Positions 9,923-44,240 of a stretch of DNA of 44,240 nucleotides are shown here, piece after piece. Position 1 is the stretch's first letter; every line of letters begins with the position of its first letter. The notes below the pieces were generated by a model. The model did not search any database and was not told the DNA's origin. It saw only the letters and a list, made by a program, of their open reading frames with translations. Position numbers and translations under genes: made by a program. This DNA comes from Parcubacteria group bacterium M10-OD1-1 (GTDB lineage Bacteria; Patescibacteriota; Minisyncoccia; Moranbacterales; UBA2206), in contig LSNL01000007.1 of assembly GCA_003056145.1 (NCBI GenBank), positions 1-44,240 of the forward strand, written 5' to 3'.

Positions 9923-9938
9923 TTTTTTTACCTCCTTG

Positions 9939-12143: not shown

Positions 12144-12159
12144 TTATAAAAACATTCCT

Positions 12160-12188: not shown

Positions 12189-12206
12189 ATAATATTTTCC
12201 TTTTTG

Positions 12207-27915: not shown

Positions 27916-27951
27916 CCGCTAAAAAATATTTTAATAATTAAAATCAAACCT

Positions 27952-30549: not shown

Positions 30550-30553
30550 TTTA

Positions 30554-31222: not shown

Positions 31223-31253
31223 AAAATATTATTTATAAATCGCCTTAGAATAA

Positions 31254-31430
31254 TTAAACTGCTTTCATTTTAGCATAGATACCATAGATACCTACTACAA
31301 TAGCGATTAAAATCCATTGAGTTCCTGCTAAACCAAAAATATTATTCTGAGTAAAAAAAACATACCCAGAAAAAATAATCGTTAGGATAGAAATCCCCAT
31401 TAAAATATCGCTTGTTTTTTGATTGTTCAT
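31254..31430 (-). CDS. 58-aa two-TM membrane protein (not in ORF track)
   Basis: MNNQKTSDILMGISILTIIFSGYVFFTQNNIFGLAGTQWILIAIVVGIYGIYAKMKAV*; SD AAAGGAGG upstream. Confidence 0.8.
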   Translation of the reverse strand: MNNQKTSDILMGISILTIIFSGYVFFTQNNIFGLAGTQWILIAIVVGIYGIYAKMKAV

Positions 31431-31503
31431 AATACACCTCCTTTCTTTTTTCTTGCTTTAATTATAGCATATTATCAAGCAAACATAAATACTAATAAGT
31501 TTA

Positions 31504-32526
31504 CTATTCTACTCTCTGATCAGCAAACATTTTTTTCGCTGCATTCCAAAGTTCTGGATGATTTCTTTCAGTTTTTAGCCAATACCACCATTCTACTCCC
31601 CAAAGATAAATCGATGGAAAACCCACTTCCCGAGCATATTTCACATTAGCTTTTAATTTTTTAACATTCATAGAAGCAAATTGTTCTTTTAGTGGTTTAC
31701 TGACCGTCCAACCAGAAATCCATGGCTCTGCTTGTAATTCAATGACAATAGCCCTATCTTGACCAGCTAGGAGTTTAATCAAACCGTATTTAAATCTAAA
31801 AAATCTTGGTCCAATCGGATAAGTAAAAAATCCAAAACCATTTTTATAAATAGTTCTATACATTGTAGTTCCAAAAATATCGGCTCTCTTAGCCGCTTTC
31901 ACCCAAAGACTTAACTCTCCACTATCTGTAACAATAATTTTCCTAGAGGGATCAATTCTTCGTGCTAAAGCCAGCTCACTATCTAAAAGTTTAGCGTCTG
32001 GTTTTGGACAAATACCAAACTTAAGGAAAGGTTCATTTTCAATTTGCCAATTCTTTATTTCTGGTTCATTTTTATATCTATTAAGTGTGACATCAATAAA
32101 TTTTAATAAGTCTTCTTTTCTAGCTTGATTATTGTGTTGATCCCATTTTGGGATATCACATTCTGGCCAACGAGGCACTTTTTGTCCAACTACTAATATA
32201 ATATCGGCCTTTCTTTTTCTAGCTTCTGCTAATTGCCAATCCACATCTGAAAAATCATATTGACCCTTAGTTTTTTCCACCAAATCCCAATAAACTGGTA
32301 TTCGAATTCTTCTAACATTTAAATCATCTAAAACAGCTAAATAAGCTTGTTTCCAATTCATTCCTAAATCTGAAGCATACCGACTAGAAAAAGTAACTCC
32401 CAATTGAGCTTTTTTATTTTCTTTCCTAACTGGAATATTGAAATAAATAAATAGTAAAATTGCTCCAGCTAAAAGAGCTAATACTAACCAACCAATTATC
32501 TTTAAAATTTTTTTGAGAATTTTCAT
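31504..32526 (-). CDS. Membrane-anchored clan GH-A glycoside hydrolase
   Basis: N-terminal TM; RIRIPVYWDLVE; QIENEPF (acid/base); IELQAEPW (nucleophile). Confidence 0.85.
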   Translation of the reverse strand: MKILKKILKIIGWLVLALLAGAILLFIYFNIPVRKENKKAQLGVTFSSRYASDLGMNWKQAYLAVLDDLNVRRIRIPVYWDLVEKTKGQYDFSDVDWQLAEARKRKADIILVVGQKVPRWPECDIPKWDQHNNQARKEDLLKFIDVTLNRYKNEPEIKNWQIENEPFLKFGICPKPDAKLLDSELALARRIDPSRKIIVTDSGELSLWVKAAKRADIFGTTMYRTIYKNGFGFFTYPIGPRFFRFKYGLIKLLAGQDRAIVIELQAEPWISGWTVSKPLKEQFASMNVKKLKANVKYAREVGFPSIYLWGVEWWYWLKTERNHPELWNAAKKMFADQRVE

Positions 32527-32572
32527 AGATATTAAATTATTTTTTAATTTTTATTTAAATTAGTAAACTTTT

Positions 32573-33499
32573 TTATTTAAATTTAGAAATTAAAACTATC
32601 CCAGTTGTAATAATTATAATCGCCAATATTTTTTGGATAATGCTTTCTGAATCTCTTTTTTCTTTAAATACCTTTGGTAGCCAAAAAGAAAAAGATAGCC
32701 CCAATAGAAAAATAAAAATGTATTCTGTAGAAACTAAGGCATTAACAATCGTTACACTACCGATAGAAGTTGCGTATTCTTTTACAATAGAGCCTGTTCC
32801 CCCTAAGGCTTTATTCAAAACAAATAAAATTCCAGAAAATTTATTTTTCGTTGAAGGTTTTTTAAACTTAAGAAAAGAATTTAAAATTAATTTTCTCCAA
32901 ACTGGAACAACTAAAAGACTTAAGGCTCCTAATAAAACTCCAAATCTAGTCCAAATATAAACATTGATAAAATTATCGTGGTTGTAAAATTCTTTAAAAA
33001 CAGTGTAAGAAATAGCTAATAAAATACCAGCAATGATAGAATGGGCAAAACCCACAAAAAATTTACGAGAATTTTTGGATGAAAGATCTAAGGATATACC
33101 TAAGCCCCCAATAATTAACATCCCCACTCCAATAACTTCTAGTTTTCCCAGGTGCTCACTAATAATAAGTCCTGAAGATAAAAATAACGTTACCATAGGA
33201 ACAACCGCTCCAACAACAGGGATAACTCTACTAGCCTCACTCTTATTAATAGCAAAAAATAACGCTAGAATAGCATAGACAAAAATAATTCCAGCCACCA
33301 AACTGGCTATTATTTTATTTCCACTAATCATATGAAATCCAAAAGGGAAAAAAGCTAAAGCAAACAAGCTAAGAATACCTGTATAAAAAGTATAAATAGC
33401 TGGGTGAGAAACTCTTTTAGAAGTAAGTAAAAACTTATCCATAATCACTTCTAGAGCGATTAAAAAATAAGCACTAACGGCAATTGGCAACCAAGCCAT
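32573..33499 (-). CDS. EamA/DMT family transporter
   Basis: About 10 hydrophobic segments, two-repeat layout, EASRV.P motif. Confidence 0.8.
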   Translation of the reverse strand: MAWLPIAVSAYFLIALEVIMDKFLLTSKRVSHPAIYTFYTGILSLFALAFFPFGFHMISGNKIIASLVAGIIFVYAILALFFAINKSEASRVIPVVGAVVPMVTLFLSSGLIISEHLGKLEVIGVGMLIIGGLGISLDLSSKNSRKFFVGFAHSIIAGILLAISYTVFKEFYNHDNFINVYIWTRFGVLLGALSLLVVPVWRKLILNSFLKFKKPSTKNKFSGILFVLNKALGGTGSIVKEYATSIGSVTIVNALVSTEYIFIFLLGLSFSFWLPKVFKEKRDSESIIQKILAIIIITTGIVLISKFK

Positions 33500-33609
33500 A
33501 AAAAAATTAACTTAAAAATTTATTTTACTTTAACTAACTTTTTAATTCTACACTAATATTCAAATATAAAAAAGACTGCTAAAGCAATCTTTTTAAAAAA
33601 TATTTTGTT

Positions 33610-34359
33610 TTAAGAATTTAATCTATAAAAATAAAAACTAACGTCACTAATCCATTTTTTAACCCCTTGAGGATTATGTCCGCGACAAGTTGACCCACAT
33701 TTCCAAACAATCATTTTCTGAGGAGTGTTAATTTTTTGACTAATCAAATTTTCAATTCTTCCTCCAACAATAGACACCGCCTGTTGTGGATTATCAAAAC
33801 AGCTATAGCCAGATTTTGTTGGATTGTATCGCCCCCTATAGCCCCAATAATTATAACAATCTCTCCCGTTCTTTTTTGGCGAATATTTCCCCCAATTACT
33901 TTCCTTTTTAGCAATTCCAATTAAAAAAGCAGCTACTCGTTTATTTTTTTTAGCAATTTCTGGTACCATATTTTCCATTGGATAGCCAGTAATCATTTCT
34001 TTGTATCGTTCTATTTTTTCTTTTGTTTTTTGATTACTACTTCTTATTACTTGGCCAACGGACAAACAAAGCTTAGTATTGGCTGTTGAAGTTGGAATTT
34101 TTATTATTCCTTTTCCAATTTTTTGACCAGGATTAAAAATCTTTAAATTAATTCCAGGCTGAGAAATATTTTTCTGTGCATACGCTTTATCATCTAAAAA
34201 GACAGAAAAAAATAGCCTTAAACCTATTAGTGTAAGAATAGCTAACCATAATATATTTTGTTGTTTCTTCCCGAATAATCTTTTTAAATTATTTTTAGCT
34301 TTTCGCCAATTAATAAAAAGATTGATTTTTCTTCGACTTTTCAGGAAATAATCATCCAT
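33610..34359 (-). CDS. Membrane-anchored lysozyme-fold (GH73/glucosaminidase-like) protein, paralog 1
   Basis: TM; GIAKKESNWGK...CYNYWGY...CFDNP; WKCG..C. Start uncertain (ATG 34359 vs track 34398). Confidence 0.7.
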   Translation of the reverse strand: MDDYFLKSRRKINLFINWRKAKNNLKRLFGKKQQNILWLAILTLIGLRLFFSVFLDDKAYAQKNISQPGINLKIFNPGQKIGKGIIKIPTSTANTKLCLSVGQVIRSSNQKTKEKIERYKEMITGYPMENMVPEIAKKNKRVAAFLIGIAKKESNWGKYSPKKNGRDCYNYWGYRGRYNPTKSGYSCFDNPQQAVSIVGGRIENLISQKINTPQKMIVWKCGSTCRGHNPQGVKKWISDVSFYFYRLNS

Positions 34360-34527
34360 TAGTTTTTCATTTCTGGAATGTCCCCGCTTTAAACTCAATA
34401 GTTATCATCAAGATTTTCAACATCCAGTAGTTTTTAAACGACCAAAGTAGTCTAGCACTCTGACATTTCTTGTCAATAGATGATTTTATTGTTATTTTTC
34501 CTTTATTTTATTGTCTTAAATGAGTTA

Positions 34528-35595
34528 TTAAAGTCTATTTAACCTTTGAAATTCTTTAAAATATATATTCACATCACTCACCCATTTATTTACTGCTTTT
34601 GGACTATCCCAAGAACAATCATAACCACATTTCCAAATAACTACCATTTTTCTAGGATTGTTTATTTTTTCTTTAGTTACTAGATAATTAATTCTTCTAG
34701 CTACTGTATCAACTGCATCTTTTGGACTATTAAAACAAGTATGCCCTCCGCTACCCATTTTTTTTCGCTTAGCTCTAAAACCCCAATAGTTAAAACAGTC
34801 TTGTCCCTTATAGACTGGCACTCTCCTCCCCCAGTTACTTTCTTTCCTTGCAATTCCTACTAAAAAGGCAGCCACTGTTTTATTTTGTTTAGCTATATAA
34901 GGAATCATTTTTTCAATTGGATAACCTTTCAACATTTTCTGAAGATTTTTTTCAGTTCTTCTCTGTTCTGCAGTTTCGTTTTGTTTCTTATAGTTATCAA
35001 CAATTTTAGTATTTTCTTTTCCCGATCTACCTCCCCTAAACCTCTCCATGCTCTCGCCAAGAACCATTCCTTGATTACTCTTTTTTGAGAACTGAGATTG
35101 AGAAGTATTGTTTTGAGCTAAAACTTGTTTAGAAACAGCTTCCGCTCCTTGACCTAAATAACGATAAATGAAAGTCATTAAAAACATTCCAAAAAATAAA
35201 GCTGTAACAATGGAAAGATTCCACATTTTAACAGCTGATACACCTTGAACAGAGCCCCTAAAAAAATCTTTAAGATAATTACTTCCATTAGCATATCTTT
35301 TTTGAATTTGCCTATAAAGGTCAAAACTTTGTTGCTTATAAATTTCCTTATAAGAGCTTTTTTTAGCTGGTTGAATACCATCTAAATTGCGTAGATATAA
35401 AGATTTTTTATTTTTTACAAAATGATATTCTACACTCTCTGTTATAAAGTCGTTAGATATGCCATATTTAGAAAAAAGAGTGGAAGAATTTTTATATTTC
35501 CCAATAAATTTAACTAACGGCAGATCAAAATCTGATTTTGGTGTTTTATTATTATAAAAAATATCTATTATTTTTGGTCTTTGAAAATTTTTCAT
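34528..35595 (-). CDS. Membrane-anchored lysozyme-fold (GH73/glucosaminidase-like) protein, paralog 2
   Basis: Central TM; GIARKESNWGR...CFNYWGF...CFNSP; WKCG.DC. Confidence 0.75.
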   Translation of the reverse strand: MKNFQRPKIIDIFYNNKTPKSDFDLPLVKFIGKYKNSSTLFSKYGISNDFITESVEYHFVKNKKSLYLRNLDGIQPAKKSSYKEIYKQQSFDLYRQIQKRYANGSNYLKDFFRGSVQGVSAVKMWNLSIVTALFFGMFLMTFIYRYLGQGAEAVSKQVLAQNNTSQSQFSKKSNQGMVLGESMERFRGGRSGKENTKIVDNYKKQNETAEQRRTEKNLQKMLKGYPIEKMIPYIAKQNKTVAAFLVGIARKESNWGRRVPVYKGQDCFNYWGFRAKRKKMGSGGHTCFNSPKDAVDTVARRINYLVTKEKINNPRKMVVIWKCGYDCSWDSPKAVNKWVSDVNIYFKEFQRLNRL

Positions 35596-35624
35596 TTTTT
35601 ATTGTTGGACTACCTTTATTTTAT

Positions 35625-36533
35625 TTATTGTATCATTTTTTTGGTTTTTTGGCTATAAATCATTAAGCCTCCAGCCAAGAGAATCATCAGAAAACTTAAC
35701 ATTTGACCCATCGTTAAAAAACCTAGCAGATAACCTATTTGTTGATCTGGTTGACGAAAAAATTCCGCTATAATTCTAGCAATAGCATAACCAAAAAGAT
35801 AGAAAGCTAAAAGATTAGGCTGATATTTTTTATTATTTCTAATGCTCCATAAAATAAAGAATAAAAGTAATCCTTCTAAAATAGCTTCTATCAATTGAGA
35901 GGGATATCGCAAAGAATGGGTATAATCATTAGGGAAATACATTCCCCAACTACCAGTTGTTATTCTTCCATAAAGTTCTCCGTTAAGAAAATTTCCTATC
36001 CTACCAAAAAAATAGCCAGCAGGAACAGCTGGAATAATAAAATTAGCTAATCGCAAAAAATAAAGTTTATTTTTGTTCGCAAAGATTAAAGCCATTATTA
36101 AAACACCTATCAGCCCTCCATGATAGCTCATTCCATAAAAACCGATGAATTGATGGGTAATAGGATCAAATGGAGAAATTATAGCTAAAGGATTCTTCCA
36201 ATAATACGCTAAGTTATAGAAAAGAACATAGCCTATCCGACCACCCAATATTACTCCGAAAAAAGCATACGCCAAAAAATCAAAGATTAGAGTCTGCAAT
36301 CTAGCTTGGTTTTGAGGATTAAAAGATGAGACACCTTTATTTGAGGATTTCCACCAAAAAATATTATTTTTTAGTTCTCCTTTTTTTATTCGCCAATCTA
36401 ATAAAAAATAGACAGTTACAAATCCCACCAAGTACATCAAACTATACCAACCAATATTCAAGGACCCAACAGAAAAAGCCACTGGATTTAAATGTTCAGG
36501 GATATGCTGAAAATTGTAAATAAAATTGTTCAT
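35625..36533 (-). CDS. lgt: Prolipoprotein diacylglyceryl transferase
   Basis: WYSLMY, GGRIGYVLFY, GMSYHGG, GRIGNFLNGELYGR, YPSQL, EFFRQPD. Confidence 0.97.
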   Translation of the reverse strand: MNNFIYNFQHIPEHLNPVAFSVGSLNIGWYSLMYLVGFVTVYFLLDWRIKKGELKNNIFWWKSSNKGVSSFNPQNQARLQTLIFDFLAYAFFGVILGGRIGYVLFYNLAYYWKNPLAIISPFDPITHQFIGFYGMSYHGGLIGVLIMALIFANKNKLYFLRLANFIIPAVPAGYFFGRIGNFLNGELYGRITTGSWGMYFPNDYTHSLRYPSQLIEAILEGLLLFFILWSIRNNKKYQPNLLAFYLFGYAIARIIAEFFRQPDQQIGYLLGFLTMGQMLSFLMILLAGGLMIYSQKTKKMIQ

Positions 36534-36567
36534 ATTACCTTTATAATTCTAGCATTTTTTTAAACAT

Positions 36568-36596
36568 AAAAAAAACCGTCCCTCAAGGACGGTTTC
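36568..36596 (-). terminator. Intrinsic terminator after the beta-helix gene
   Basis: AAACCGTCC-CTCAA-GGACGGTTT with a U-run on the minus strand. Confidence 0.8.
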
Positions 36597-36608
36597 CATA
36601 GATATTTC

Positions 36609-37580
36609 TTATTTTACAAAAATAATCCGAGAAATGCTTCCAAAAATATTTCTACTAAATTCATTCTTACTTCCAAAAGTTAAATATTTATTCCACAAAT
36701 TACTATTAAACCTACCTGAAGTTCTCTGAATTTTGGCAACTGCGTATCGATGGTTACCAATAATTTTTGATTTAGCGATATTGATTCTCCCATTTCCACC
36801 GAAAAAAGAAATTTCAATGCCTTCTCTTTTATTTTTTCTGATACTATTTTTTTTCATCCAAATATTAGAAGTTCCTATTGTTAATTTAAATCCACTTCCC
36901 TTATTATCCTTTATAGAATTTTCAGCAATCCAAGCGCTTGTTCCAGCAGCCAAATCTACTCCATCTCCTCTGTTGTTAAGAACATCACTATCCATCAAAA
37001 CAACTCTTCTTGGCCCCATACTATAAATTCCAGACTTTCCATTGTTTCTGATTCTAGTCTTTGAAATATAGATTCCATTAGATTTTTTCGTGTTCCCACC
37101 TTCAATTAAAACTCCGTCTTTTTTATTATATTTAATCACACAATCAATAATAGAAGATTTAGCATGACTGCCTACTCGAATCCCTTGTTTACCTCGCTTA
37201 ATCGTAAACCCGTCAATTTCACTGTCATCTTCCATTCTTACTGTTGCCCATTTACTTTTTTTAGCTTTAATGATAGTCCTGTCTCTATCTTCTCCAAAAA
37301 GTTTTACGCCCTTTTTAAGAGTTATATTTTCATTATATTCACCTTTAGCTACATGAATTTCTGTTCTTTTGTCCGCTTCATTTAAAGCTTGATTAATTGT
37401 CTTATACGGATGCTCAACAGAACCATTTTCTTCTCCATTGGCCTTAATATTAACATAGATATCAGTCTTATGGCTTGAAAAGGCAAAAACAGGCAGACTC
37501 AATATGACAACTGCGGTTAGACCTATGACATATAACTTAATCTTGTTTCGTTTTTTCATTTTCTGTTCTAATTTTTTCAT
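36609..37580 (-). CDS. Secreted right-handed beta-helix (pectin-lyase-like, DUF1565-type N-terminus) protein
   Basis: Signal/TM; GSVEHPYKTINQAL; repeated I..N...G units. Start uncertain (37580 or 37559). Confidence 0.85.
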   Translation of the reverse strand: MKKLEQKMKKRNKIKLYVIGLTAVVILSLPVFAFSSHKTDIYVNIKANGEENGSVEHPYKTINQALNEADKRTEIHVAKGEYNENITLKKGVKLFGEDRDRTIIKAKKSKWATVRMEDDSEIDGFTIKRGKQGIRVGSHAKSSIIDCVIKYNKKDGVLIEGGNTKKSNGIYISKTRIRNNGKSGIYSMGPRRVVLMDSDVLNNRGDGVDLAAGTSAWIAENSIKDNKGSGFKLTIGTSNIWMKKNSIRKNKREGIEISFFGGNGRINIAKSKIIGNHRYAVAKIQRTSGRFNSNLWNKYLTFGSKNEFSRNIFGSISRIIFVK

Positions 37581-37711
37581 TGTATTATATTTATTATTAA
37601 CATCCAATGATAACAAACATTTAATAGTTTTGTCAATGTTTGAAAAATAAAAAACCACCCTTTAAAATTAGAGTGGTTCTTAATTAAGGAATTTAGCTAA
37701 ATCCTAATTAC

Positions 37712-38641
37712 CTATTTATTACTAGTCTCACTATTTGAAGTGCTATTTGTGGTAGTTGTTTTTGAAAAAGTGGCAGAAAAATCAGTTTTAGCTTTTTCAA
37801 TGGCAGTTTTAAAATTATCTCTCGCTACTTGCATTGCTTGTTGTCGGGTTTTAATTAGAGCTCTAATTTGCTCACCGATATTTTTAAATTGTTGCATCTT
37901 TTTTTGTCTATTATTTTTCATAGATTGCATTTCTGTTTGTAACTCAGTTTTCATAGATTGAACATTAACTTCTCCTTTTTCACAAGCATTTTTAGCCTTA
38001 TTAAAAGCTTCTACTCTATTAGATTGCATAGTTACAATAGCACTATTTATAATTGACATTCTTTGTGAAAGCAATTTCATTAAGCCTTCTCTAAAATTAG
38101 TAATTGCTTTAGTTGTAGCTTCTCTTCTGATTTTAGTAGCTGATTCAATAGCATTCTCAAAACTAGCCACTGCTGATTTTTGTTCTGCTGTTTGCGCTCT
38201 TTTATCTAATAAATCAAAACTTTTTTTAAGATGAGAATCTACTTTAGTTCTCCACTGATTTCTTTGGGTGTCTATATTTTTTTGTCGTTCTTGCAAACGT
38301 GCTTCCCTTTGAGCTATTCTCCCTTGAATTTCTTTTTTATGAGTATTCATTTTTTGACTGAAAGTTGAATTTTCCTCATTAATTCTTTCACAAAAACGAG
38401 CACTTCTTTTTTGTATTTTTGCTCCAGTTTTTTTAGAATGATTTTCTTGTGAATTACTTTCTTGACGAACATATTTATTGATTGAATGTATCTGAGCTAC
38501 TGGTCCATTATGACCTTCAGTCATCTCCATTGAATCAGCTGAAACGCTTTGAAAAGCGATAAATACCGCTGAAATAACCACTACTGAAATTAGCATTTTT
38601 TGTTTAAACTTAATTTGAATCATATATTTGATTAAGGTCAT
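37712..38641 (-). CDS. Secreted long coiled-coil protein
   Basis: Signal peptide, ~230 aa helical heptads, S/T-rich tail. Confidence 0.8.
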   Translation of the reverse strand: MTLIKYMIQIKFKQKMLISVVVISAVFIAFQSVSADSMEMTEGHNGPVAQIHSINKYVRQESNSQENHSKKTGAKIQKRSARFCERINEENSTFSQKMNTHKKEIQGRIAQREARLQERQKNIDTQRNQWRTKVDSHLKKSFDLLDKRAQTAEQKSAVASFENAIESATKIRREATTKAITNFREGLMKLLSQRMSIINSAIVTMQSNRVEAFNKAKNACEKGEVNVQSMKTELQTEMQSMKNNRQKKMQQFKNIGEQIRALIKTRQQAMQVARDNFKTAIEKAKTDFSATFSKTTTTNSTSNSETSNK

Positions 38642-38972
38642 TTAATTCTTGCGAGTCATCAACTGTGCTAGTTGCATCACTTTCTTCTTGATCAGTAAAG
38701 TTTTTTTCAGAAGAAGCATCTTTAAGAACAGTTGAAACTATATCGTCAACACTTCCAGTAGGTTTAGAGAGTGTTGGCTCTTTGATAATTTCCGACGCTG
38801 GTTTTCCAGTAGTTTTGATTGTTGATTGTTTTTTAGCTAAAGTATTAACTGTTGGTGCTATAGCAACATTTCTGTCTAAGCCTTCTTCCATATAGAAGAA
38901 TAAATAGACTATAACAGCTAGTCCTGATAGAGCAACCACAAGAGCTAAAACTTCTATGGTTTTTTTTGACAT
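38610..38972 (-). CDS. Single-TM anchored low-complexity protein
   Basis: N-terminal TM, acidic S/T/D-rich tail; adjacent to the coiled-coil gene. Confidence 0.7.
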   Translation of the reverse strand: MSKKTIEVLALVVALSGLAVIVYLFFYMEEGLDRNVAIAPTVNTLAKKQSTIKTTGKPASEIIKEPTLSKPTGSVDDIVSTVLKDASSEKNFTDQEESDATSTVDDSQELNDLNQIYDSN

Positions 38973-39051
38973 ATATTTTTCTTTTAATTTTAATTTTAAT
39001 TATTTACTTAATTTTAGCGAAAACTCGACCTCATTTTCGCTTAACTACTGT

Positions 39052-39690
39052 CTATTCAATACAACAGTTAACAGCTTTTTTTACTAATTCTCCTAATTTT
39101 CCCATAAAATTATTCTCTCCTGGATTTTTAGGACCTTCTTTGACTGTATTTTTATCAACGGATTGACTATCGTCCTCTACTTTTAAGGCTAGCTTTATTT
39201 TATTATTCTCATGCTTATTCAGACTGCCTTCATCAATTTTTTGAAGGTCACTTGAATCAATTAGCTTCATATTAATTCCCCAAAAAAGAGAATAGAGATT
39301 ATAAGCTTTCTGAAAAAGTTCTTGAGCCTCTTCTTTTTTCCCCATTCCTTGTTGTTTAGTTCCAACTTCCATTAAGCGCATAGAAGCTGCCAATAAATGT
39401 TTAGAAATACACCAGATTTCTCCCTCAGGATCCTTAACAATTTTTTTTAGAAGTTCCCCCCTCATAACTCTTATTTCTTGTAACAAATCAAAATAATGAG
39501 GTTTGTTAAGCTTTGAACCAGTAAAGAAAAAGTGTTCTTCTATACTCACTAAATTCATAATAGCAATTGATAAATCTTGGTCGGAACTTAAATCTAGTTT
39601 ATCTTGCTTTTTCATATTATCTACTTTCTCAATAAATTCATTGATATTTTGAATAACTTTTTGCTTGTTTTTTGGTTCTTGATTATTCAT
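39052..39690 (-). CDS. Hypothetical helical protein ending in CCIE
   Basis: DLSIAIMNLVSIEEHFFF, WCISKHLL, C-terminal vicinal cysteines. Confidence 0.8.
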   Translation of the reverse strand: MNNQEPKNKQKVIQNINEFIEKVDNMKKQDKLDLSSDQDLSIAIMNLVSIEEHFFFTGSKLNKPHYFDLLQEIRVMRGELLKKIVKDPEGEIWCISKHLLAASMRLMEVGTKQQGMGKKEEAQELFQKAYNLYSLFWGINMKLIDSSDLQKIDEGSLNKHENNKIKLALKVEDDSQSVDKNTVKEGPKNPGENNFMGKLGELVKKAVNCCIE

Positions 39691-39698
39691 AGCCTTAA

Positions 39699-40220
39699 TT
39701 AGTTAATTATAAAATAAAAGATAGCACTTCCCAAAAGAAGCATTGAAACAGGAATAATAACTTTTTGAAAAGGAAAGAAAACTTTATTATTATTCATTTT
39801 TTTCAACCAACCATTTAAAGCTACTCCTCCTAAAAATAAAATACTGCCAACAAAAATACCTAACACTAATTTATCTATTCCCCAAAGCTTATTAAAAGGA
39901 TGCCCAATAATTTCATTGTAATATAATGGTCCAACAGAAAATAAATAATAGGCAATAACAGTAATTGTTTTTTGACCATAGAATTTAATTTTCTTTTTAG
40001 TTAACCATTCAATTGTCCAAATAGACATTGAGATGATTAAAGCTCCTATCCAAAGTCCAGTAATTGTATCATCAACCCCAAAGTATCTTGAAAGTCCCAC
40101 TCCAGCTCCAACAGCAATAGCACAAACTGGACAAATAGCTTTAGCTGGAGAAGCTATTAACCAAATAACCAAAGCCAAAAATGGCAATATTATTTTATTG
40201 GAAATTTTTTTTATCTTCAT
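39699..40220 (-). CDS. Multi-TM membrane protein with CPVC motif
   Basis: AICPVCAIAVGAG after a signal/TM segment; about 4 further TMs. Confidence 0.8.
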   Translation of the reverse strand: MKIKKISNKIILPFLALVIWLIASPAKAICPVCAIAVGAGVGLSRYFGVDDTITGLWIGALIISMSIWTIEWLTKKKIKFYGQKTITVIAYYLFSVGPLYYNEIIGHPFNKLWGIDKLVLGIFVGSILFLGGVALNGWLKKMNNNKVFFPFQKVIIPVSMLLLGSAIFYFIIN

Positions 40221-40612
40221 TTTATTTTGTCATCAAAGAATTTACTTACCTCAATTTCCCCTAGATAGCATCTCCCATTCGCCCAAAGAAAAGGTACGCC
40301 CAATTCTTTTATTTCTATTTTACATTGCTTAGCTTTTTCAACCATTAAGTTAGCATTAGCTTTATTATGAAAAACTTCTCTTTGAGAAAATTTTATTTTT
40401 TCTGTCGCCTTAATAGCTGATAAATGTTTCTCTAGTTTTTGACAATGAGGACATTCTTTTCCATAAAATAGAATTACAGAAGCATTATCTTTAGCCACAT
40501 CCGAAATCTTTTTTTGTTTAATCCCATTATTTCTATTAAGAGCATACACACCAATAATTATTAAAGTAAGAATAGCAATTAGAAAAATAATAAGATACTT
40601 TTTTCTGTTCAT
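40217..40612 (-). CDS. Membrane-anchored glutaredoxin/thioredoxin-fold protein
   Basis: TM anchor; LFYGKECPHC; cis-Pro motif GVPFL. Confidence 0.88.
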   Translation of the reverse strand: MNRKKYLIIFLIAILTLIIIGVYALNRNNGIKQKKISDVAKDNASVILFYGKECPHCQKLEKHLSAIKATEKIKFSQREVFHNKANANLMVEKAKQCKIEIKELGVPFLWANGRCYLGEIEVSKFFDDKIK

Positions 40613-40892
40613 TTTAATTGATAATTTTTTAATTTAGTAACCATAGTTAAGAAATATCTTCTAATAATTTTCATTATTTAATCTTAACCTTTTATTATAA
40701 TAACATTTTTTTCTTAAAAATAAAAATAATTAAAATAAACTAGTTCAAATCTATTCAGGACATCTATTAAATAATGGTCTCCTAATTAAATTTTAGAAAA
40801 ATCAATAAAAAAATTAAAACTGAAGACTCTACTCAAATGATCTTTCTCTAATTTTTTATACTTAATTAGTTCAGAAAATAATTTTAATTAAA

Positions 40893-40928
40893 CAAAAAAA
40901 ACAACCCCAATTACTCAGGGTTGTTTTT
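40893..40928 (-). terminator. Terminator after the RRM gene
   Basis: AAAACAACCCC...GGGGTTGTTTT with U-run. Confidence 0.8.
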
Positions 40929-40944
40929 AAATTTTTTCTGAAGA

Positions 40945-41244
40945 CTAGTATCTTCCTCCACCAAATCCGTTTCCAGTTCTTGGACGATCGGTTTTAGGAC
41001 GAGCCTCATTAACGGTTAGCTTTCTTCCATCATGTTCTTTTTCATTGAACATTTCAATAGCAGCTTGAGCTTCTTCAGGAGTACTCATTTCAACAAATCC
41101 AAATCCTTTGGATCGACCAGACATTCTATCAGTTATAATAATAGCTGATTGAACTGTTCCAGCTTGAGAAAAAAGTTCTTGAAGTGCTTCATCATTAATA
41201 TTGTAAGAAAGATTTCCTACGTATAATTTTTGTTCCATTTTCAT
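40945..41244 (-). CDS. RRM (RNP-1) RNA-binding protein
   Basis: KLYVGNL (RNP2), KGFGFVEM (RNP1), LTVNEARPK, Gly-rich tail. Confidence 0.97.
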   Translation of the reverse strand: MKMEQKLYVGNLSYNINDEALQELFSQAGTVQSAIIITDRMSGRSKGFGFVEMSTPEEAQAAIEMFNEKEHDGRKLTVNEARPKTDRPRTGNGFGGGRY

Positions 41245-41348
41245 TTTGCCTTATTTAAATTACGCATTGCAAGGCGACCGTTTCTCATATCGCTTAACAC
41301 TTACCTAAATAAGGCGAAACTTATTGAGAAGACTTACAACTGCTCTAT

Positions 41349-41427
41349 TCTAGCTTATTTATGATAAAAAGTCAAGTAAATTTTCTAGCTCTGTTTTTTT
41401 GACAGAGCTAAAACAAATTGTTAGAAT
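41349..41427. promoter_or_regulatory. Back-to-back sigma70 promoters
   Basis: Minus strand TTGACT-17-TAGAAT (about 41347-41375); plus strand TTGACA(41399)-17-TAGAAT(41427). Confidence 0.75.
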
Positions 41428-41804
41428 AATCATACGATTTAATCAAAAGTAGCCGCACATTTCAAAAATACATTAGAAATTAACAAAGATATATTTTCTT
41501 TTTAGTTTTTGATGCCCAATTCAGTAGCTGAGCTTTATAGACACAATTTTAAAAAGTATCCTCAGGAAAATTAAAAGTCACCCATTTTTGCTCAATTAGT
41601 AAAATATTTACTAGAAAATATTTTAAATGCATCAAAAACAATCAAAAATAGGCAAACTGCTTTAGAAAAATCAACCAACAATTCACCTTCTGAAAGTTCT
41701 CTCATCCAAAAAGCATAGGTGAAGACCGAAAATTTCGGTTGTCTCTTGATTAAATTGAAATATTTGCTATAATCAGGTTACTTTAGATTTTTAAAAAAAT
41801 ATAT

Positions 41805-41879
41805 TCCGCGATAGCTCAATGGTAGAGCAGTTGACTGTTAATCAATTGGTTGTAGGTTCGAGTCCTACTCGCGGAGCCA
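41805..41879 (+). tRNA. tRNA-Asn (GTT), CCA encoded
   Basis: TCCGCGA...TCGCGGA-GCCA; anticodon loop CTGTTAA. Confidence 0.97.
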
Positions 41880-41919
41880 AAAAAAATACAGAGTTAACTC
41901 TGTATTTTTTTTGGCTCCG
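41872..41919. terminator. 48-bp perfect palindrome/terminator overlapping the tRNA-Asn 3' end
   Basis: CGGAGCC-A8-TACAGAGTTAACTCTGTA-T8-GGCTCCG. Confidence 0.85.
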
Positions 41920-42056
41920 AACTCTGAACGAAATCCGAACTTTTTTTAAGGAAAATCCGCAAGCGGATTTAGAAGACTGACCACGCACGGAGCGTGTGGT
42001 AGCTCTGACTTCTTTCTTACGCTCCGATGAAATAGGTAATTTAATCGGTGCGTTTC

Positions 42057-42090
42057 CTCTCGCCTCCGCTCCGGCGAAACAAAACAGAAA
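42057..42090 (+). repeat. Repeat A, copy 1 (34 bp)
   Basis: CTCTCGCCTCCGCTCCGGCGAAACAAAACAGAAA, identical at 43995-44028; contains a TCGCC/GGCGA hairpin. Confidence 0.95.
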
Positions 42091-42295
42091 CGCGCGCGAG
42101 CTACAAGAGGTCGGTGAGGACATCGATGAAATTTCCGAAGACATTGAAGAGATTGGTGAAGACATCGACGAAATGTCTGAAGATGACGAAGAAGATGAAG
42201 AACATCGAAAAATACAAAATGTTATATTGGGCAAACTTACGAAAGATATCCAGCGCATCCTCGATGACCTTGAGACTCTGAAGCACTCGAGGTAA
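42083..42295 (+). pseudogene. 3' remnant of an acidic-repeat membrane protein gene (DUF1003-like, tentative)
   Basis: NRNARELQEVGEDIDEISEDIEEIGEDIDEM...DDLETLKHSR*; no plausible start; begins within the end of repeat A. Confidence 0.55.
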
Positions 42296-42297
42296 GA
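42266..42297 (+). repeat. Repeat B, copy 1 (32 bp)
   Basis: GACCTTGAGACTCTGAAGCACTCGAGGTAAGA; second copy at 43788-43819 with one mismatch. Confidence 0.95.
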
Positions 42298-42411
42298 CAC
42301 GAATACCAACAAGAAACTTCTTGGACTTCAAAATTAATCATTTTTTTATAAAAAAATAGCATCGGATTTTATTCCAATGCTATCAGATATGAACTGAAAG
42401 AACTTTTTAGA

Positions 42412-42630
42412 TTAGAACTGCCACCACTTTTTGCGTGGTTTTGGTTCTTCTAATAACTCTGTAATCTGCTCGACAATGAACTTATGTCGACCAGCAGTAC
42501 GATTAACGCTTATTAGGCGCATTATAACATCTCTCTTCCGTGCCCCGCAAAGGGCGTTTGCAAGTTCATCTACAAACCTTGCATCTTCTTTAAGTTGCTC
42601 CTTGGTTCCTTTGAAATATATTGTCGACAT
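42412..42630 (-). CDS. 72-aa hypothetical protein ending KPRKKWWQF
   Basis: SD GAGGGG at 42640-42645; 19 nt downstream of the DHH gene. Confidence 0.7.
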   Translation of the reverse strand: MSTIYFKGTKEQLKEDARFVDELANALCGARKRDVIMRLISVNRTAGRHKFIVEQITELLEEPKPRKKWWQF

Positions 42631-42649
42631 AATCTTTAGCCCCTCTAAT

Positions 42650-43459
42650 TTAGTTAGTATGTTTTAAAAACTCCTCAACTTTATCTTGATTGGCGTACCC
42701 TCCCCAAAAGGCGGTTTTACCCGCTTCCCCGAGACCAGCACCGCCTGACCAACCGTCAAATTTTTCCTGAAGTTTAAAACAAATTTCTCCGTCTCCGGAA
42801 AAATTTGTTTCTCCGTCTCCGGAAAAGACCACATACTGAGGAATATCTTCTCCCTCAGTAAAATTCAGAATGGCGAAGTAGTCCCCCACAGGACCACATT
42901 TCGAGTGACTCATACGAATCACCCGAATGGAGCCAACCATCTCAACAGGAGCATTCAAGGCCCTGCTGATTTCCGCCATCATATCCTCTGTAACCCCCTG
43001 AAGACTGCTGTCTTCATGCCGGATTTTTTTCACCTCCTCCTGCGTGGCAGGCGGTGACAAGAAACCCGTGCCGGGAATTTCCAGTGTGCCAGCAAGACCA
43101 GGAAACCAACCTGCATCGTTGGCAGCCACAATATGATCCCAACGAGTCGGCGGAACGCCGAGCAAATCAAGCACCTGCAATATAGCAGGTGGCTCATTCA
43201 CTCTGTCATTGTGATGATCAATCACGACTGCCGTTTCCGGCAAGTCGCAGTCAACCTCCAGCTCAATTAGAACTGGAATCTTCCCGGTTTTGGCAACCGC
43301 GGCGAACTCCTGTTCGCCGTAATCGGACGCTTTTGCGCCCCAGCCTAAACCCGCGTCGCGGACCTCGCAGCCCGCTTTTTCAAGAACTTCCGCGATGCGC
43401 GCCATTTCGGCGTCTGCACCGCCGAGAAAAAATACATAATTATTTAACTTGTTGTCCAT
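42650..43459 (-). CDS. DHH-family phosphodiesterase, NrN-like
   Basis: FLGGADAEM, VIDHHN, VAANDAGWFPG, IRHED...QGV, CGPVGD, FWGG. SD AAGGAG at 43467-43472. Confidence 0.8.
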   Translation of the reverse strand: MDNKLNNYVFFLGGADAEMARIAEVLEKAGCEVRDAGLGWGAKASDYGEQEFAAVAKTGKIPVLIELEVDCDLPETAVVIDHHNDRVNEPPAILQVLDLLGVPPTRWDHIVAANDAGWFPGLAGTLEIPGTGFLSPPATQEEVKKIRHEDSSLQGVTEDMMAEISRALNAPVEMVGSIRVIRMSHSKCGPVGDYFAILNFTEGEDIPQYVVFSGDGETNFSGDGEICFKLQEKFDGWSGGAGLGEAGKTAFWGGYANQDKVEEFLKHTN

Positions 43460-43555
43460 GATTTATCTCCTTAGATATTACGCCTTCATCATATTAGAAT
43501 CCGGCAATTTTATCCGCCCCAACACCGTTGGTTCAGAAATTAAAATTCATCGACT

Positions 43556-43609
43556 CTTGCGAGCAACGTTTTAACTATAAAAAATTACAATCAAAACATT
43601 GCTCGCAAG
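43556..43609. repeat. 17-bp inverted repeat (1 mismatch), 20-nt spacer
   Basis: CTTGCGAGCAACGTTTT ... AAAACATTGCTCGCAAG. Confidence 0.9.
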
Positions 43610-43732
43610 CACTTTGCACTCAACAAATTGAAAACGGAGTACATTTCATCGTGTTTTCAAAGAACAGCATTCAGATTTAAACAAATCTACTAATTAGTAA
43701 AGCATATTGAAGTTCATTTGTCAAGGACATGT

Positions 43733-43774
43733 ACTGAATTAACACTTGAGGTGCACGTCAAGTGTTAATTCAGT
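43733..43774. repeat. Perfect 17-bp inverted repeat, 8-nt loop
   Basis: ACTGAATTAACACTTGA-GGTGCACG-TCAAGTGTTAATTCAGT. Confidence 0.95.
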
Positions 43775-43787
43775 CTTAACAGTACGC

Positions 43788-43819
43788 GACCTTGAGACTC
43801 TGAAGCGCTCGAGGTAAGA
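43788..43819 (+). repeat. Repeat B, copy 2
   Basis: GACCTTGAGACTCTGAAGCGCTCGAGGTAAGA. Confidence 0.95.
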
Positions 43820-43877
43820 TATTAGGGTTGTAAACGAACTGATAAAAGTTTACGATTAAAAACTTCAAAATAAGTGA

Positions 43878-43950
43878 GGGCCATTAGCTCATCTGGTAGA
43901 GCGCATCCATGGCATGGATGAGGTGAGCGGTTCGAGTCCGCTATGGTCCA
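43878..43950 (+). tRNA. tRNA-Ala (GGC)
   Basis: GGGCCAT/ATGGTCC acceptor with G3.U70; anticodon loop ATGGCAT (A32-U38, typical of Ala-GGC). Confidence 0.96.
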
Positions 43951-43994
43951 CAAACGCGAACTTCGTTCGCAGACAGCACAACACGACCGCGCTA

Positions 43995-44028
43995 CTCTCG
44001 CCTCCGCTCCGGCGAAACAAAACAGAAA
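43995..44028 (+). repeat. Repeat A, copy 2
   Basis: Identical to 42057-42090. Confidence 0.95.
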
Positions 44029-44240
44029 TTTTTTCAATACATTTTTTTAATTTTTTTCTGCCCCCATTTTTTTCTTTTAATAGGAATTGAAAAATTTTCT
44101 GTTTTGATTTCCTCTTAATCAGAGAAAAGCGGAAACGCTCTATTTTTAATCGCAAAAGGGCAAAAATTCCTTCCCCCAGACCCCCTTCCTTTTTGCCCTT
44201 TTGTTTTTCGGGCTTCGCCCGATTTACACAGTACGTAGTC

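What the first reader, a model, noticed from the sequence alone, without database searches (positions are those of the whole stretch)
42650..43459. Standalone NrN-like (SAM-AMP phosphodiesterase-type) DHH enzyme on a mobile cassette, with no CRISPR or CorA
Seen: a 269-aa protein with the motif series LGGADAEM / LGW.AKASDY / VLIEL / IDHHN...P.AILQV / VAANDAGWFPG / EEV..IR.ED...QGV / GSIRVI / CGPVGD / FWGG. Knowledge (from memory): this order matches the NrN DHH nuclease encoded beside CorA in the Bacteroides fragilis type III-B CRISPR locus, which degrades the SAM-AMP second messenger. Here there is no cas10, CorA or CRISPR array in the window, and the gene sits in a GC-rich, repeat-flanked, SD-led cassette between tRNAs. 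Inference: an orphan signal-destroying enzyme, possibly counter-defence cargo against SAM-AMP or related nucleotide signalling in a host cell or virus, or a nucleotide-scavenging nano-RNase.
Basis: partly seen in the sequence, partly recalled or inferred. Interest (0 to 1): 0.85.

Follow-up and report, generated by a model that had tools for sequence, protein, structure and literature searches.

The report
Standalone mobile NrN-like phosphodiesterase gene
This gene encodes a close structural relative of NrN, the enzyme that destroys the CRISPR alarm molecule SAM-AMP, but it belongs to a separate, horizontally moving branch of that family that is never found with CRISPR genes, so its real substrate and role are still unknown.

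Summary
Window 42650..43459 (-) encodes a 269-aa protein with all the quoted motifs. It hits the solved B. fragilis NrN structures by sequence (E=4e-20; profile 2e-61) and by fold (TM 0.77-0.83, full length). The catalytic residues are conserved (E18, D81-H82-H83, D115).

It is not an isolated orphan. It belongs to a distinct standalone clade, found in CPR bacteria and gut Alphaproteobacteria MAGs. None of 37 such loci has cas10, cmr or corA within 10 kb, while the more distant clade is NrN-CorA fusions followed by cmr operons and CRISPR arrays.

The standalone clade has its own invariant C-terminal residues, which B. fragilis NrN lacks. Its genes are GC3-rich relative to their hosts (+0.15, p=3e-5). 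Some sit beside serine recombinases.

Here the gene forms a promoter-SD-gene-ORF72-terminator unit inside a 1.9-kb block. That block is 96.6% identical to one in an otherwise unrelated CPR genome from the same hydrothermal-vent community. A sister assembly of the host lacks the block, so it is strain-variable or the contig is mis-joined at tRNA-Asn.

No viral or plasmid copy was found, so the counter-defence reading is not supported. Recurrent partners are a KH-domain protein, a DEAH helicase and a TrmB-like regulator. This is a new variant of a known family with an untested substrate.

The parts
42650..43459 (-). NrN-like DHH/DHHA1-type phosphodiesterase gene, 269 aa, standalone clade
   Evidence: ORF. 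PDB NrN E=4e-20 and 2e-61 with a profile. AF2 pLDDT 92.9. Foldseek top hits 9lqa/9lqc/9lqb/9lq9, the three ligand-bound ones at TM 0.77-0.83. PADLOC C3a116 1.5e-47 and DHH_CorA 8e-32. Catalytic E18, D81-H82-H83 and D115 are invariant.
43467..43472 (-). Shine-Dalgarno AAGGAG, 7 nt upstream of the ATG
   Evidence: Read directly from the sequence.
43696..43724 (-). Promoter-like site: perfect -35 TTGACA, 17-nt spacer, TTTACT
   Evidence: Sequence. Not listed by the consensus scan because position 2 of the -10 is T. Inferred, not shown.
43733..43774 (.). 21+21-nt palindrome directly upstream of the -35 (possible operator or insulating terminator)
   Evidence: Inverted repeat I4, 95% complementary. 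The leader folds with z=-6.7.
43556..43609 (.). 25+25-nt palindrome in the 5' leader; it holds a 14-nt indel relative to the L005 copy
   Evidence: Inverted repeat I3. Indel at 43584-43597. No Rfam family in the leader.
42412..42630 (-). ORF72: 72-aa ORFan co-transcribed with the NrN-like gene, own SD GAGGGG at 42645-42640
   Evidence: ORF. Its only relative is the 97% copy of the L005-type cassette. No Pfam, NCBIfam, PADLOC or PHROG hit. AF2 pLDDT 58, three helices. Coding status uncertain: 2 synonymous and 2 non-synonymous differences.
42355..42384 (-). Intrinsic-terminator-like hairpin (12-bp stem plus T-run) closing the two-gene unit
42266..42297 (+). D2a: 32-nt direct repeat, the 3' end and stop codon of the DUF1003-like gene; inner flank of the NrN+ORF72 cassette
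   Evidence: The same pair is present in L005.
43788..43819 (+). D2b: second copy of the 32-nt repeat (97%), 58 nt upstream of tRNA-Ala; other flank of the cassette
42082..42295 (+). 5'-truncated remnant of a DUF1003-like membrane and acidic coiled-coil gene (intact, 146 aa, in L005)
   Evidence: L005:3808-4248(-) is the full gene, with a weak DUF1003 hit. The window copy starts at the D1a junction.
43878..43951 (+). tRNA-Ala(GGC); right-hand end of the 96.6%-identical shared block
   Evidence: Block boundary.
42057..42090 (+). D1a: 34-nt perfect direct repeat; left junction of the block, joined to the DUF1003-like gene through the microhomology TTCTGTTT
43995..44028 (+). D1b: second copy of the 34-nt repeat, 43 nt downstream of tRNA-Ala (L005 has a diverged D1-like element at the same relative place)
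41805..41919 (+). tRNA-Asn(GTT) plus 24+24-nt palindromic terminator; the window and the sister assembly L088 diverge at 41911/41912
   Evidence: Both continuations are present in the same sequencing runs.

Best explanation
The gene encodes a metal-dependent phosphodiesterase of the NrN lineage of the DHH/DHHA1 superfamily. It belongs to a CRISPR-independent, horizontally mobile sister clade of the CorA-associated NrN enzymes. By analogy with B. fragilis NrN, the DHH lobe (E18, E66, D81-H82-H83, D115) would bind divalent metal ions, and the enzyme would cut one 3'-5' phosphodiester bond in a dinucleotide-sized substrate, releasing a 5'-nucleoside monophosphate. This mechanism is inferred, not shown. 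The C-terminal substrate lobe carries clade-specific invariant residues (H185-S186, S213, D215-G216-E217-x-N219, W252, G254-Y255) that the SAM-AMP-specific enzyme lacks, so the physiological substrate is probably different or broader. The best guess is a short RNA or dinucleotide, or a 5'-modified dinucleotide-like metabolite, in the cell's own cytoplasm. In this window the gene is a self-contained unit (promoter-like site, palindromic leader, strong SD, gene, ORF72, terminator). The unit is bracketed by 32-nt repeats between a DUF1003-like gene and tRNA-Ala. The whole 1.9-kb block has recently moved between two unrelated CPR genomes living in the same hydrothermal-vent community. It is an accessory gene, not a component of a type III CRISPR system.
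For: Family and fold. Catalytic residues invariant in both clades. Separate clade: bimodal profile scores, 280-420 bits against 146-236, and a distance tree. Context: 0 of 37 standalone loci have cas10, cmr3, RAMP or corA, whereas 19, 16, 16 and about 30 of 47 distant loci do, with NrN-CorA fusions and CRISPR arrays. Clade-specific C-lobe residues, absent from B. fragilis NrN. Mobility: GC3 excess of +0.147 in 24 of 27 standalone loci (p=2.7e-5) against -0.001 in CRISPR-linked loci. A 1879-nt block is 96.6% identical between the window (Parcubacteria/Moranbacteria-like) and L005 (labelled Saccharibacteria, 41% GC), with no other strong similarity (only a 117-nt, 74% match beyond tRNA-Ala and short repeat hits). 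Both carriers are present in the same runs. The block is absent from sister assembly L088. A serine recombinase lies next to the gene in L025 and L028. Purifying selection between the two copies: 9 synonymous and 9 non-synonymous changes in 262 codons, none at invariant positions. RNA-related partners: KH-domain protein adjacent in 5 loci and fused twice, DEAH/HA2 helicase adjacent in 6 loci. Operon anatomy.
Against: No biochemical data exist for any member of the standalone clade, so the substrate assignment is inference. B. fragilis NrN does not cut pApA (PMC10600005), so a nano-RNase-type activity is not the family default. The family is rare (1,211 clusters at 50% identity among 1.84 billion) and compositionally foreign, which argues against a housekeeping RNA-turnover role. 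I could not map the clade-specific residues onto the SAM-AMP pocket of 9lqa, because no coordinates were available. The placement in the 30%-GC genome may be an assembly artefact. The junction is at a tRNA whose local depth is about 6x that of the host contig. In run X3 the host is at 49x, yet only the L005-type cassette variant is seen. Only +-10 kb around each homologue was examined, so cas10 or corA elsewhere in those genomes is not excluded.
Confidence: 0.55

Rival explanations
1. Counter-defence or signal-quenching enzyme. The protein specifically hydrolyses SAM-AMP, or a related SAM-nucleotide conjugate, made by a type III CRISPR or another defence system, and so neutralises CorA-type effectors. 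It spreads as selfish anti-defence cargo.
For: True NrN homologue with an intact active site and the same overall fold as the SAM-AMP complex structures. Horizontally mobile and compositionally foreign. Precedent: a phage SAM-AMP lyase has been proposed as AcrIIIB4 (PMC12255297).
Against: No NrN-like hit in IMG/VR, INPHARED phages, PHROGs or the BFVD structures (only generic DHH folds at TM<=0.5). PLSDB holds only NrN-CorA fusions and one hypothetical protein. The block has no phage, plasmid or conjugation genes. Most carriers are chromosomal sites between housekeeping genes. The C-lobe signature differs from the SAM-AMP-specific enzyme. The protein has no signal peptide, so it acts in its own cytoplasm. 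From general knowledge, CPR hosts rarely carry type III systems.
Confidence: 0.15
2. Stripped-down piece of an unrecognised CPR multi-gene system. In about 13 CPR loci the NrN-like gene sits beside a divergently transcribed TrmB-like regulator and a large 650-1400-aa protein (C-terminal GNAT domain in some), and in about 6 loci beside a DEAH/HA2 helicase. On this reading the enzyme processes a nucleotide product or RNA handled by those partners. The window and L005 cassette would then be a derived solo copy, working alone or with partners encoded elsewhere.
For: Recurrent module in L001, L008, L009, L013, L017, L019, L085, L087, L053, L070 and L077, with the helicase in L003, L007, L009 and L013. 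The window's nearest relatives L085, L087 and L001 have the module.
Against: The partners have host-like GC3 while the NrN-like gene alone is foreign, which suggests the gene is swapped in and out rather than co-inherited. The partners match no PADLOC defence model. Some of the association may reflect relatedness of the genomes. Neither the window nor L005 has any of these partners nearby.
Confidence: 0.2
3. Dispersed component of a canonical type III-B/CorA system located elsewhere in the same genome, so the gene is ordinary NrN that has drifted away from its operon.
For: Only 44 kb of this genome, and +-10 kb around each homologue, could be inspected. PADLOC's CorA-associated DHH model hits the protein.
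Against: 0 of 37 standalone loci are near cas10 or corA, whereas CRISPR-linked NrN is fused or adjacent to corA in most distant-clade loci. The two groups separate by score, tree and signature residues. The literature describes CorA and its degrading enzyme as obligately associated (PMC10600005).
Confidence: 0.05

Closest known systems
NrN of the Bacteroides fragilis type III-B (Cmr)-CorA CRISPR system (PDB 9lq9, 9lqa, 9lqb, 9lqc; Chi et al. 2023, PMC10600005)
   Same: Same fold over the full length (TM 0.77-0.83). About 26-35% identity. Identical catalytic set: E21/E18, D85-H86-H87/D81-H82-H83, D119/D115. Shared motifs GGxDxEM, W40, E66, Q95, R106, E142, R147, Q154-G155, D193 and W-x-GG. Similar size (260 against 269 aa).
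   Different: No corA, cmr or cas10 genes or CRISPR array nearby. A separate clade with its own invariant C-lobe residues, which in B. fragilis NrN are H185->A, S186->N, D215->N, G216->gap, N219->I, W252->I and G254->T. An 11-residue insertion (128-138) in the window's subgroup. Carriers are CPR and gut Alphaproteobacteria rather than Bacteroidota, Ignavibacteria or Desulfobacterales. Synonymous-site composition is foreign to the host. The substrate is untested.
NrN-CorA fusion proteins (Arcobacter/Aliarcobacter and many Bacteroidota, Ignavibacteria and Desulfobacterales MAGs)
   Same: Homologous N-terminal NrN domain at 30-40% identity.
   Different: The fusions are 750-900 aa with a C-terminal CorA transmembrane domain (Pfam PF01544), and are followed by Cmr2/Cas10, Cmr3, RAMP and Cas6-RT genes. 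The window protein is soluble and standalone.
NrnA / GdpP / PggH / DhhP DHH-DHHA1 nano-RNases and dinucleotide phosphodiesterases
   Same: Same superfamily. A two-lobe architecture with a DHH catalytic lobe. Cuts short phosphodiester substrates.
   Different: Only a remote structural match (TM 0.3-0.5, E about 1e-6). Pfam DHH and DHHA1 models do not detect the protein. No GGGH motif. About 50 residues shorter.
[quoted passage not shown]
   Same: The concept of a mobile, solo enzyme that destroys a type III CRISPR second messenger.
   Different: Unrelated folds and chemistry (a PII-like lyase). Those enzymes are virus-encoded, whereas no virus-encoded NrN-like protein was found.

Membership tests
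NrN (CorA-associated SAM-AMP phosphodiesterase of type III CRISPR) | DHH catalytic triad (D85/H86/H87 in B. fragilis NrN, required for function) | tested here: met
   D81-H82-H83 align to it and are invariant in 20 homologues and in both clades.
NrN (CorA-associated SAM-AMP phosphodiesterase of type III CRISPR) | Additional active-site acids E21 and D119 (the residues mutated to trap ligand in 9lqa and 9lqc) | tested here: met
   E18 and D115 occupy these columns, as seen in the alignments of the mutant chains. Both are invariant.
NrN (CorA-associated SAM-AMP phosphodiesterase of type III CRISPR) | Significant full-length sequence and fold similarity to solved NrN, clearly better than to other DHH enzymes | tested here: met
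   E=4e-20 for the single sequence and 2e-61 for a profile over residues 10-250 of 260. Foldseek TM 0.77-0.83, against 0.3-0.5 for GdpP, NrnA and PggH.
NrN (CorA-associated SAM-AMP phosphodiesterase of type III CRISPR) | Gene adjacent to or fused with corA, inside a type III (cmr/cas10) CRISPR locus | tested here: not met
   No cas10, cmr3, RAMP or corA ORF and no array in the 44-kb window. None in +-10 kb of 37 standalone-clade loci, whereas most distant-clade loci have them. The rest of the genome could not be searched.
NrN (CorA-associated SAM-AMP phosphodiesterase of type III CRISPR) | [quoted passage not shown] | not testable with these tools
   Needs an enzyme assay. The ligand-contact residues of 9lqa could not be read, as no coordinates or structure paper were available.
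NrN (CorA-associated SAM-AMP phosphodiesterase of type III CRISPR) | C-terminal (substrate) lobe residues as in the characterised enzyme | tested here: inconclusive
   Shared: K187, D193, E217, G222, W237, G239-G240, G253. Different: H185, S186, S213, D215, G216, N219, W252, G254 and Y255 are invariant in the standalone clade but not in B. fragilis NrN or the CRISPR-linked clade. Which of these touch the ligand is unknown.
NrnA/GdpP-type DHH-DHHA1 nano-RNases | Detected by Pfam DHH (PF01368) and DHHA1 (PF02272) models; GGGH motif in the DHHA1 lobe | tested here: not met
   No Pfam or NCBIfam family at E<=1, apart from a sub-threshold 'Phosphatase' hit. The sequence has W-S-GG and FWGG but no GGGH. 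The structural match is only remote.
Virus- or plasmid-borne anti-defence signal degraders (AcrIII-type) | Encoded on phage, virus or plasmid genomes | tested here: not met
   IMG/VR: 0 relatives. INPHARED tblastn: no match. PHROGs: none. BFVD fold search: only generic DHH proteins. PLSDB: only NrN-CorA fusions and one hypothetical protein.
tRNA-linked genomic islet or gene cassette | Flanking direct repeats, variable presence among strains, foreign composition, own recombinase | tested here: inconclusive
   Direct repeats D1 and D2 are present. The block is absent from sister assembly L088. GC3 is 0.50 against 0.21. There is no recombinase in the block or the window tail. A mis-join at tRNA-Asn cannot be excluded. 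A serine recombinase neighbours relatives in L025 and L028.

The most novel reading that the evidence does not exclude
SAM-AMP-like (SAM- or amino-acid-nucleotide conjugate) signalling or metabolism exists outside type III CRISPR. On this reading, the standalone NrN clade is its dedicated, horizontally traded hydrolase: either an off-switch for an unrecognised CPR system (TrmB-like regulator, large GNAT-containing protein, DEAH helicase), or an anti-defence enzyme that genome-reduced symbionts use against CorA-type immunity.
Probability: 0.12. Interest if true: 0.85.

Novelty: new variant of a known kind. Interest (0 to 1): 0.55.

Why it matters
In the papers I could read, NrN is known only as the CorA-partnered enzyme that degrades the CRISPR second messenger SAM-AMP, and the literature calls that association obligate. 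A coherent clade of NrN-like enzymes with the following properties raises a concrete, testable question: what small molecule do they destroy?

- They are never near CRISPR or CorA genes.
- They have their own conserved substrate-lobe signature.
- They behave as horizontally traded genes in CPR bacteria and gut Alphaproteobacteria.

If the substrate is SAM-AMP, this would be the first phosphodiesterase-type candidate anti-CRISPR for that pathway, or evidence that the messenger is used outside CRISPR. If it is short RNA, it would be a new nano-RNase type for genome-reduced bacteria. Either answer needs only a simple enzyme assay.

Tried and rejected
1. Riboswitch in the 418-nt leader: no Rfam family. 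The strong fold (z=-6.7) comes from two DNA palindromes.
2. ORF72 function: an ORFan whose only relative is the 97% copy. No family in four libraries. The AF2 model is too poor (pLDDT 58) for a fold search. A ribbon-helix-helix reading of its beta-alpha-alpha pattern is only a guess.
3. Empty-site search with the D2 repeat in JGI metagenomes: no match. A close-relative scan of the same collection found nothing.
4. A 'CorA-like' signal in five standalone loci was an artefact of profile contamination. After removing the self sequence there is none, and L024's 756-aa protein is an NrN-KH fusion without transmembrane segments.
5. A possible CRISPR array in standalone locus L003: it is a plain 56-nt tandem repeat.
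By sequence the partner is only a MarR/TrmB-type winged HTH.
7. A contig in runs X1 and X3 that joins window <=42001 to >=44014 through 39 other bases (item 5c) looked like an empty-site allele. It could not be verified, and another contig diverges after 44034, so I do not rely on it.
8. Literature: no paper in the library describes a standalone NrN clade or the NrN crystal structures.
9. GC-richness as an amino-acid effect: rejected, because the excess is at third codon positions and is specific to the standalone clade.
Full report
OBSERVATION. Every quoted motif is in the translation. The gene has 50% GC in a window that averages about 30%. It has an AAGGAG Shine-Dalgarno 7 nt before the start. 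It lies between tRNA-Asn (41805-41879) and tRNA-Ala (43878-43951). Two pairs of direct repeats frame it: D2, 32 nt, 97%, at 42266-42297 and 43788-43819; and D1, 34 nt, 100%, at 42057-42090 and 43995-44028. None of 100 shuffles gave such a D1 pair.

WHAT THE PROTEIN IS. Pfam and NCBIfam have no model for it. A plain sequence search of PDB finds the NrN crystal structures (9lq9, 9lqa/9lqb, 9lqc) at E=4e-20, and a mixed family profile aligns B. fragilis NrN over its full length at E=2e-61. An AlphaFold model built on 20 homologues is confident (pLDDT 92.9, pTM 0.88). Its best PDB matches are those same NrN entries, the three ligand-bound ones at TM 0.77-0.83. GdpP, DhhP, RecJ, NrnA and PggH follow at TM 0.3-0.5. 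PADLOC's type III accessory models also hit it: C3a116 at 1.5e-47 and 'DHH_CorA' at 8e-32. The residues mutated in the functional and structural work on B. fragilis NrN (D85/H86/H87 in PMC10600005; E21 and D119 in 9lqa and 9lqc) correspond to D81-H82-H83, E18 and D115. These are invariant in the family.

IT BELONGS TO A SEPARATE, CRISPR-FREE CLADE. The family is small: 378 clusters at 90% identity, and 1,211 clusters at 50% identity among 1.84 billion. I fetched 84 loci from reference genomes and metagenomes and scored their ORFs with the family profile. The scores are bimodal.

- Thirty-seven loci score 280-420 bits. They are mostly standalone proteins of about 250-300 aa from CPR bacteria (Parcubacteria, Saccharibacteria, Falkow-, Davies-, Kaiser- and Peribacteria) and from gut Alphaproteobacteria MAGs.
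- Forty-seven loci score 146-236 bits. They come mostly from Bacteroidota, Ignavibacteria, Desulfobacterales and Calditrichota. About 20 of these are 750-900-aa NrN-CorA fusions (Pfam CorA at the C-terminus). Downstream they have Cmr2/Cas10, Cmr3, RAMP and Cas6-RT genes and CRISPR arrays.

Profiles built from those cas10, cmr3, RAMP and CorA clusters find nothing in the window and nothing in any standalone locus. An apparent CorA signal in five standalone loci was my own profile contamination. A putative array in L003 is an ordinary tandem repeat. A bootstrapped distance tree groups the standalone sequences, plus five divergent CPR copies, apart from the CRISPR-linked ones, with moderate support of 20/40.

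The two groups share the catalytic core. The standalone clade also has its own invariant residues in the C-terminal lobe: H185-S186, S213, D215-G216-E217-x-N219, W252 and G254-Y255. In the SAM-AMP-specific B. fragilis enzyme these positions are A, N, T, N, gap, (E), I, I, T. In DHH/DHHA1 enzymes the C-terminal lobe holds the substrate (general knowledge of the superfamily). A different or broader specificity is therefore plausible but unproven.

THE CLADE BEHAVES AS A MOBILE ACCESSORY GENE.
(i) In 24 of 27 standalone loci the gene is richer in GC3 than its neighbours: mean +0.147, Wilcoxon p=2.7e-5. In the window it is 0.50 against 0.21+-0.05. CRISPR-linked NrN domains match their hosts (-0.001, p=0.30).
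(ii) L005, a 41%-GC MAG labelled Saccharibacteria, shares a 1,879-nt block with the window (42082-43951) at 96.6% identity. Outside the block the only other similarity is a weak 117-nt match (74%) just beyond tRNA-Ala and short repeat matches. By its RNase J the window organism is Parcubacteria/Moranbacteria-like.
(iii) Both versions occur in the same hydrothermal-vent metagenomes. Run X3 carries the L005-type junction and cassette variant.
(iv) In L025 and L028 a small serine recombinase lies next to the gene. Elsewhere the gene is wedged between housekeeping genes such as LigA, IF-3, AspRS and RNase D.
(v) Between the two cassette copies the NrN gene has 9 synonymous and 9 non-synonymous changes in 262 codons, none at invariant sites. 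That is consistent with purifying selection.

ANATOMY IN THE WINDOW. Reading the minus strand, the unit runs as follows:
- a 21+21-nt palindrome (43733-43774);
- a perfect TTGACA with a 17-nt spacer and TTTACT (43724-43696);
- a 5' leader holding a 25+25-nt palindrome (43556-43609);
- the AAGGAG Shine-Dalgarno and the NrN-like gene;
- 19 nt further on, a 72-aa ORFan with its own GAGGGG;
- a 12-bp terminator hairpin with a T-run (42384-42355).

This unit is bracketed by the D2 repeats. One copy is the 3' end of a DUF1003-like membrane and acidic coiled-coil gene. The other lies 58 nt upstream of tRNA-Ala. The gene is intact in L005 (146 aa), and L005 has the same repeat pair. The NrN+ORF72 cassette therefore looks like an insertion between that gene and tRNA-Ala that duplicated 32 nt.

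In the window the DUF1003-like gene is cut at 42082 and joined to D1a through the microhomology TTCTGTTT. D1 is an element that normally lies downstream of tRNA-Ala, and L005 has a diverged copy there. I infer that a roughly 1.94-kb circle formed by recombination between these short repeats in an L005-like donor and integrated at a D1 site. No recombinase is present in the block.

A CAVEAT ON THE HOST. L088 (GCA_003056095.1) is 99.95% identical to the window from 30217 to 41911. That stretch runs through tRNA-Asn and 32 nt of its palindromic terminator. L088 then continues into unrelated, host-like genes, and nothing right of 41911 in the window is present in it. Both continuations exist in the same runs. 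The tRNA region is about 6x deeper than the host contig. In X3 the host is at 49x while only the L005-type cassette is seen. The block is therefore either a strain-variable islet at tRNA-Asn or the product of a mis-join at a shared tRNA. This does not affect what the gene is. It does mean the contrast with a 30%-GC genome should not be over-read. L005 and the clade-wide GC3 result are the safer evidence of foreignness.

WHAT IT PROBABLY DOES. The chemistry is inferred from homology: metal-dependent hydrolysis of one 3'-5' phosphodiester bond in a dinucleotide-sized substrate. The biology is open.

The counter-defence idea has no positive support. IMG/VR, INPHARED, PHROGs and BFVD contain no NrN-like protein, and PLSDB contains only NrN-CorA fusions and one hypothetical protein. 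The block carries no mobile-element machinery. The protein has no export signal.

The recurring neighbours of the clade are RNA-related or regulatory:
- a soluble KH-domain protein, adjacent in five gut-alphaproteobacterial loci and fused to the enzyme in L024 and P0144;
- a DEAH/HA2 helicase, in six CPR loci;
- a divergently transcribed TrmB-like regulator with a large uncharacterised protein, in about 13 CPR loci, including the window's nearest relatives L085, L087 and L001.

This leans towards short-RNA or dinucleotide turnover, or towards an unrecognised CPR module. However, the family's rarity and foreign composition argue against a housekeeping role, and B. fragilis NrN itself does not cut pApA (PMC10600005). 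My estimates are 0.55 for a CRISPR-independent accessory phosphodiesterase with a non-CRISPR substrate, 0.20 for a stripped component of a CPR multi-gene system, 0.15 for a SAM-AMP quencher or anti-defence enzyme, and 0.05 for a dispersed part of a canonical CRISPR locus.

NOVELTY. In the literature available to me, NrN appears only as the CorA partner in type III CRISPR loci, and the association is called obligate (PMC10600005, PMC11229360, PMC12255297). I found no description of a standalone clade. I therefore rate this as a new variant of a known kind, with moderate interest. One enzyme assay and one published in-vivo assay would settle its meaning.

Noticed in passing
window 41805-41919 and 41912-44240; L088:1-8741: A 99.95%-identical sister assembly (L088, GCA_003056095.1) diverges from the window at 41911/41912, inside the palindromic terminator of tRNA-Asn, and continues into host-like genes (ornithine/DAP decarboxylase, aminotransferase). 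The window's last 2.3 kb is either a strain-variable islet or a chimeric join. Both junctions occur in the same sequencing runs.
   Followed up: partly
27 standalone-clade loci (e.g. L008, L017, L020, L085) compared with 39 CRISPR-linked loci: Standalone NrN-like genes are systematically richer in GC3 than their host genes (mean +0.147, p=2.7e-5), even when embedded in a conserved module whose other genes are host-like. CRISPR-linked NrN domains show no such excess.
   Followed up: yes
L001, L008, L009, L013, L017, L019, L053, L070, L077, L085, L087 (about 3 kb upstream of the NrN-like gene): Recurrent CPR gene module: a large 650-1400-aa protein with no known domains except a C-terminal GNAT in some, convergent with a TrmB-like wHTH regulator that is divergent from the NrN-like gene. 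It is often followed by a roughly 1000-aa DEAH/HA2 helicase. No PADLOC defence model matches.
   Followed up: partly
L024:9968-16429; P0144: A gut alphaproteobacterial locus has four NrN-like paralogues in tandem, one of them a 756-aa fusion to a soluble KH-domain protein. A second, independent NrN-KH fusion (916 aa) is in the representative library. The standalone KH protein neighbours the gene in L025, L028, L029, L030 and L033.
   Followed up: partly
L025:~770-1460, L028:9136-9810, L082:9388-10020: A small serine recombinase (Resolvase plus HTH) lies directly beside, and divergent from, the NrN-like gene in L025 and L028. A member of the same cluster is also present in L082.
   Followed up: no
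L005:1008-1891: In the other carrier of the block, the far side of tRNA-Ala holds an XRE-type regulator and an HNH endonuclease with homing-endonuclease-associated repeats. This is a possible source of double-strand breaks that could promote co-conversion of the neighbouring cassette.
   Followed up: no
window 42784-42826: A perfect 19-nt direct repeat 24 nt apart inside the NrN-like gene encodes the doubled peptide SGDGE-TNF-SGDGE. The first copy is the clade-invariant D215-G216-E217 motif.
   Followed up: no
window 42639-43111 (run X4): One contig (depth about 10) in run X4 skips 473 nt inside the NrN-like gene, which would truncate it. This may be a deletion variant or an assembly artefact.
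   Followed up: no
window 4270-8572: A type I restriction-modification system: an HsdR-like 843-aa helicase/nuclease and a 588-aa N6-methylase fused to a specificity domain. It is the only recognisable defence system in the window.
   Followed up: no
window 8852-11711, next to tRNA-Leu and tRNA-Cys at 12057-12277: A second GC-elevated stretch (0.37-0.41 against about 0.30) encodes an isocitrate/isopropylmalate dehydrogenase and an aconitase-family (LeuC-like) protein beside two tRNA genes. It may be another acquired segment, or simply conserved genes.
   Followed up: no
window 27509-27917: A tmRNA gene with tag peptide ANFITKAKSAIANAFVPNFATAIA. Together with RNase J, a class I (Trp/Tyr) tRNA synthetase, YchF and Lgt, it confirms a cellular (CPR) chromosome rather than a virus or plasmid.
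   Followed up: no
P0166 (1011 aa): A RAMP-domain protein with a C-terminal NrN domain (residues 753-1007). This is a direct fusion of NrN to a type III CRISPR subunit, in the CRISPR-linked score range.
   Followed up: no
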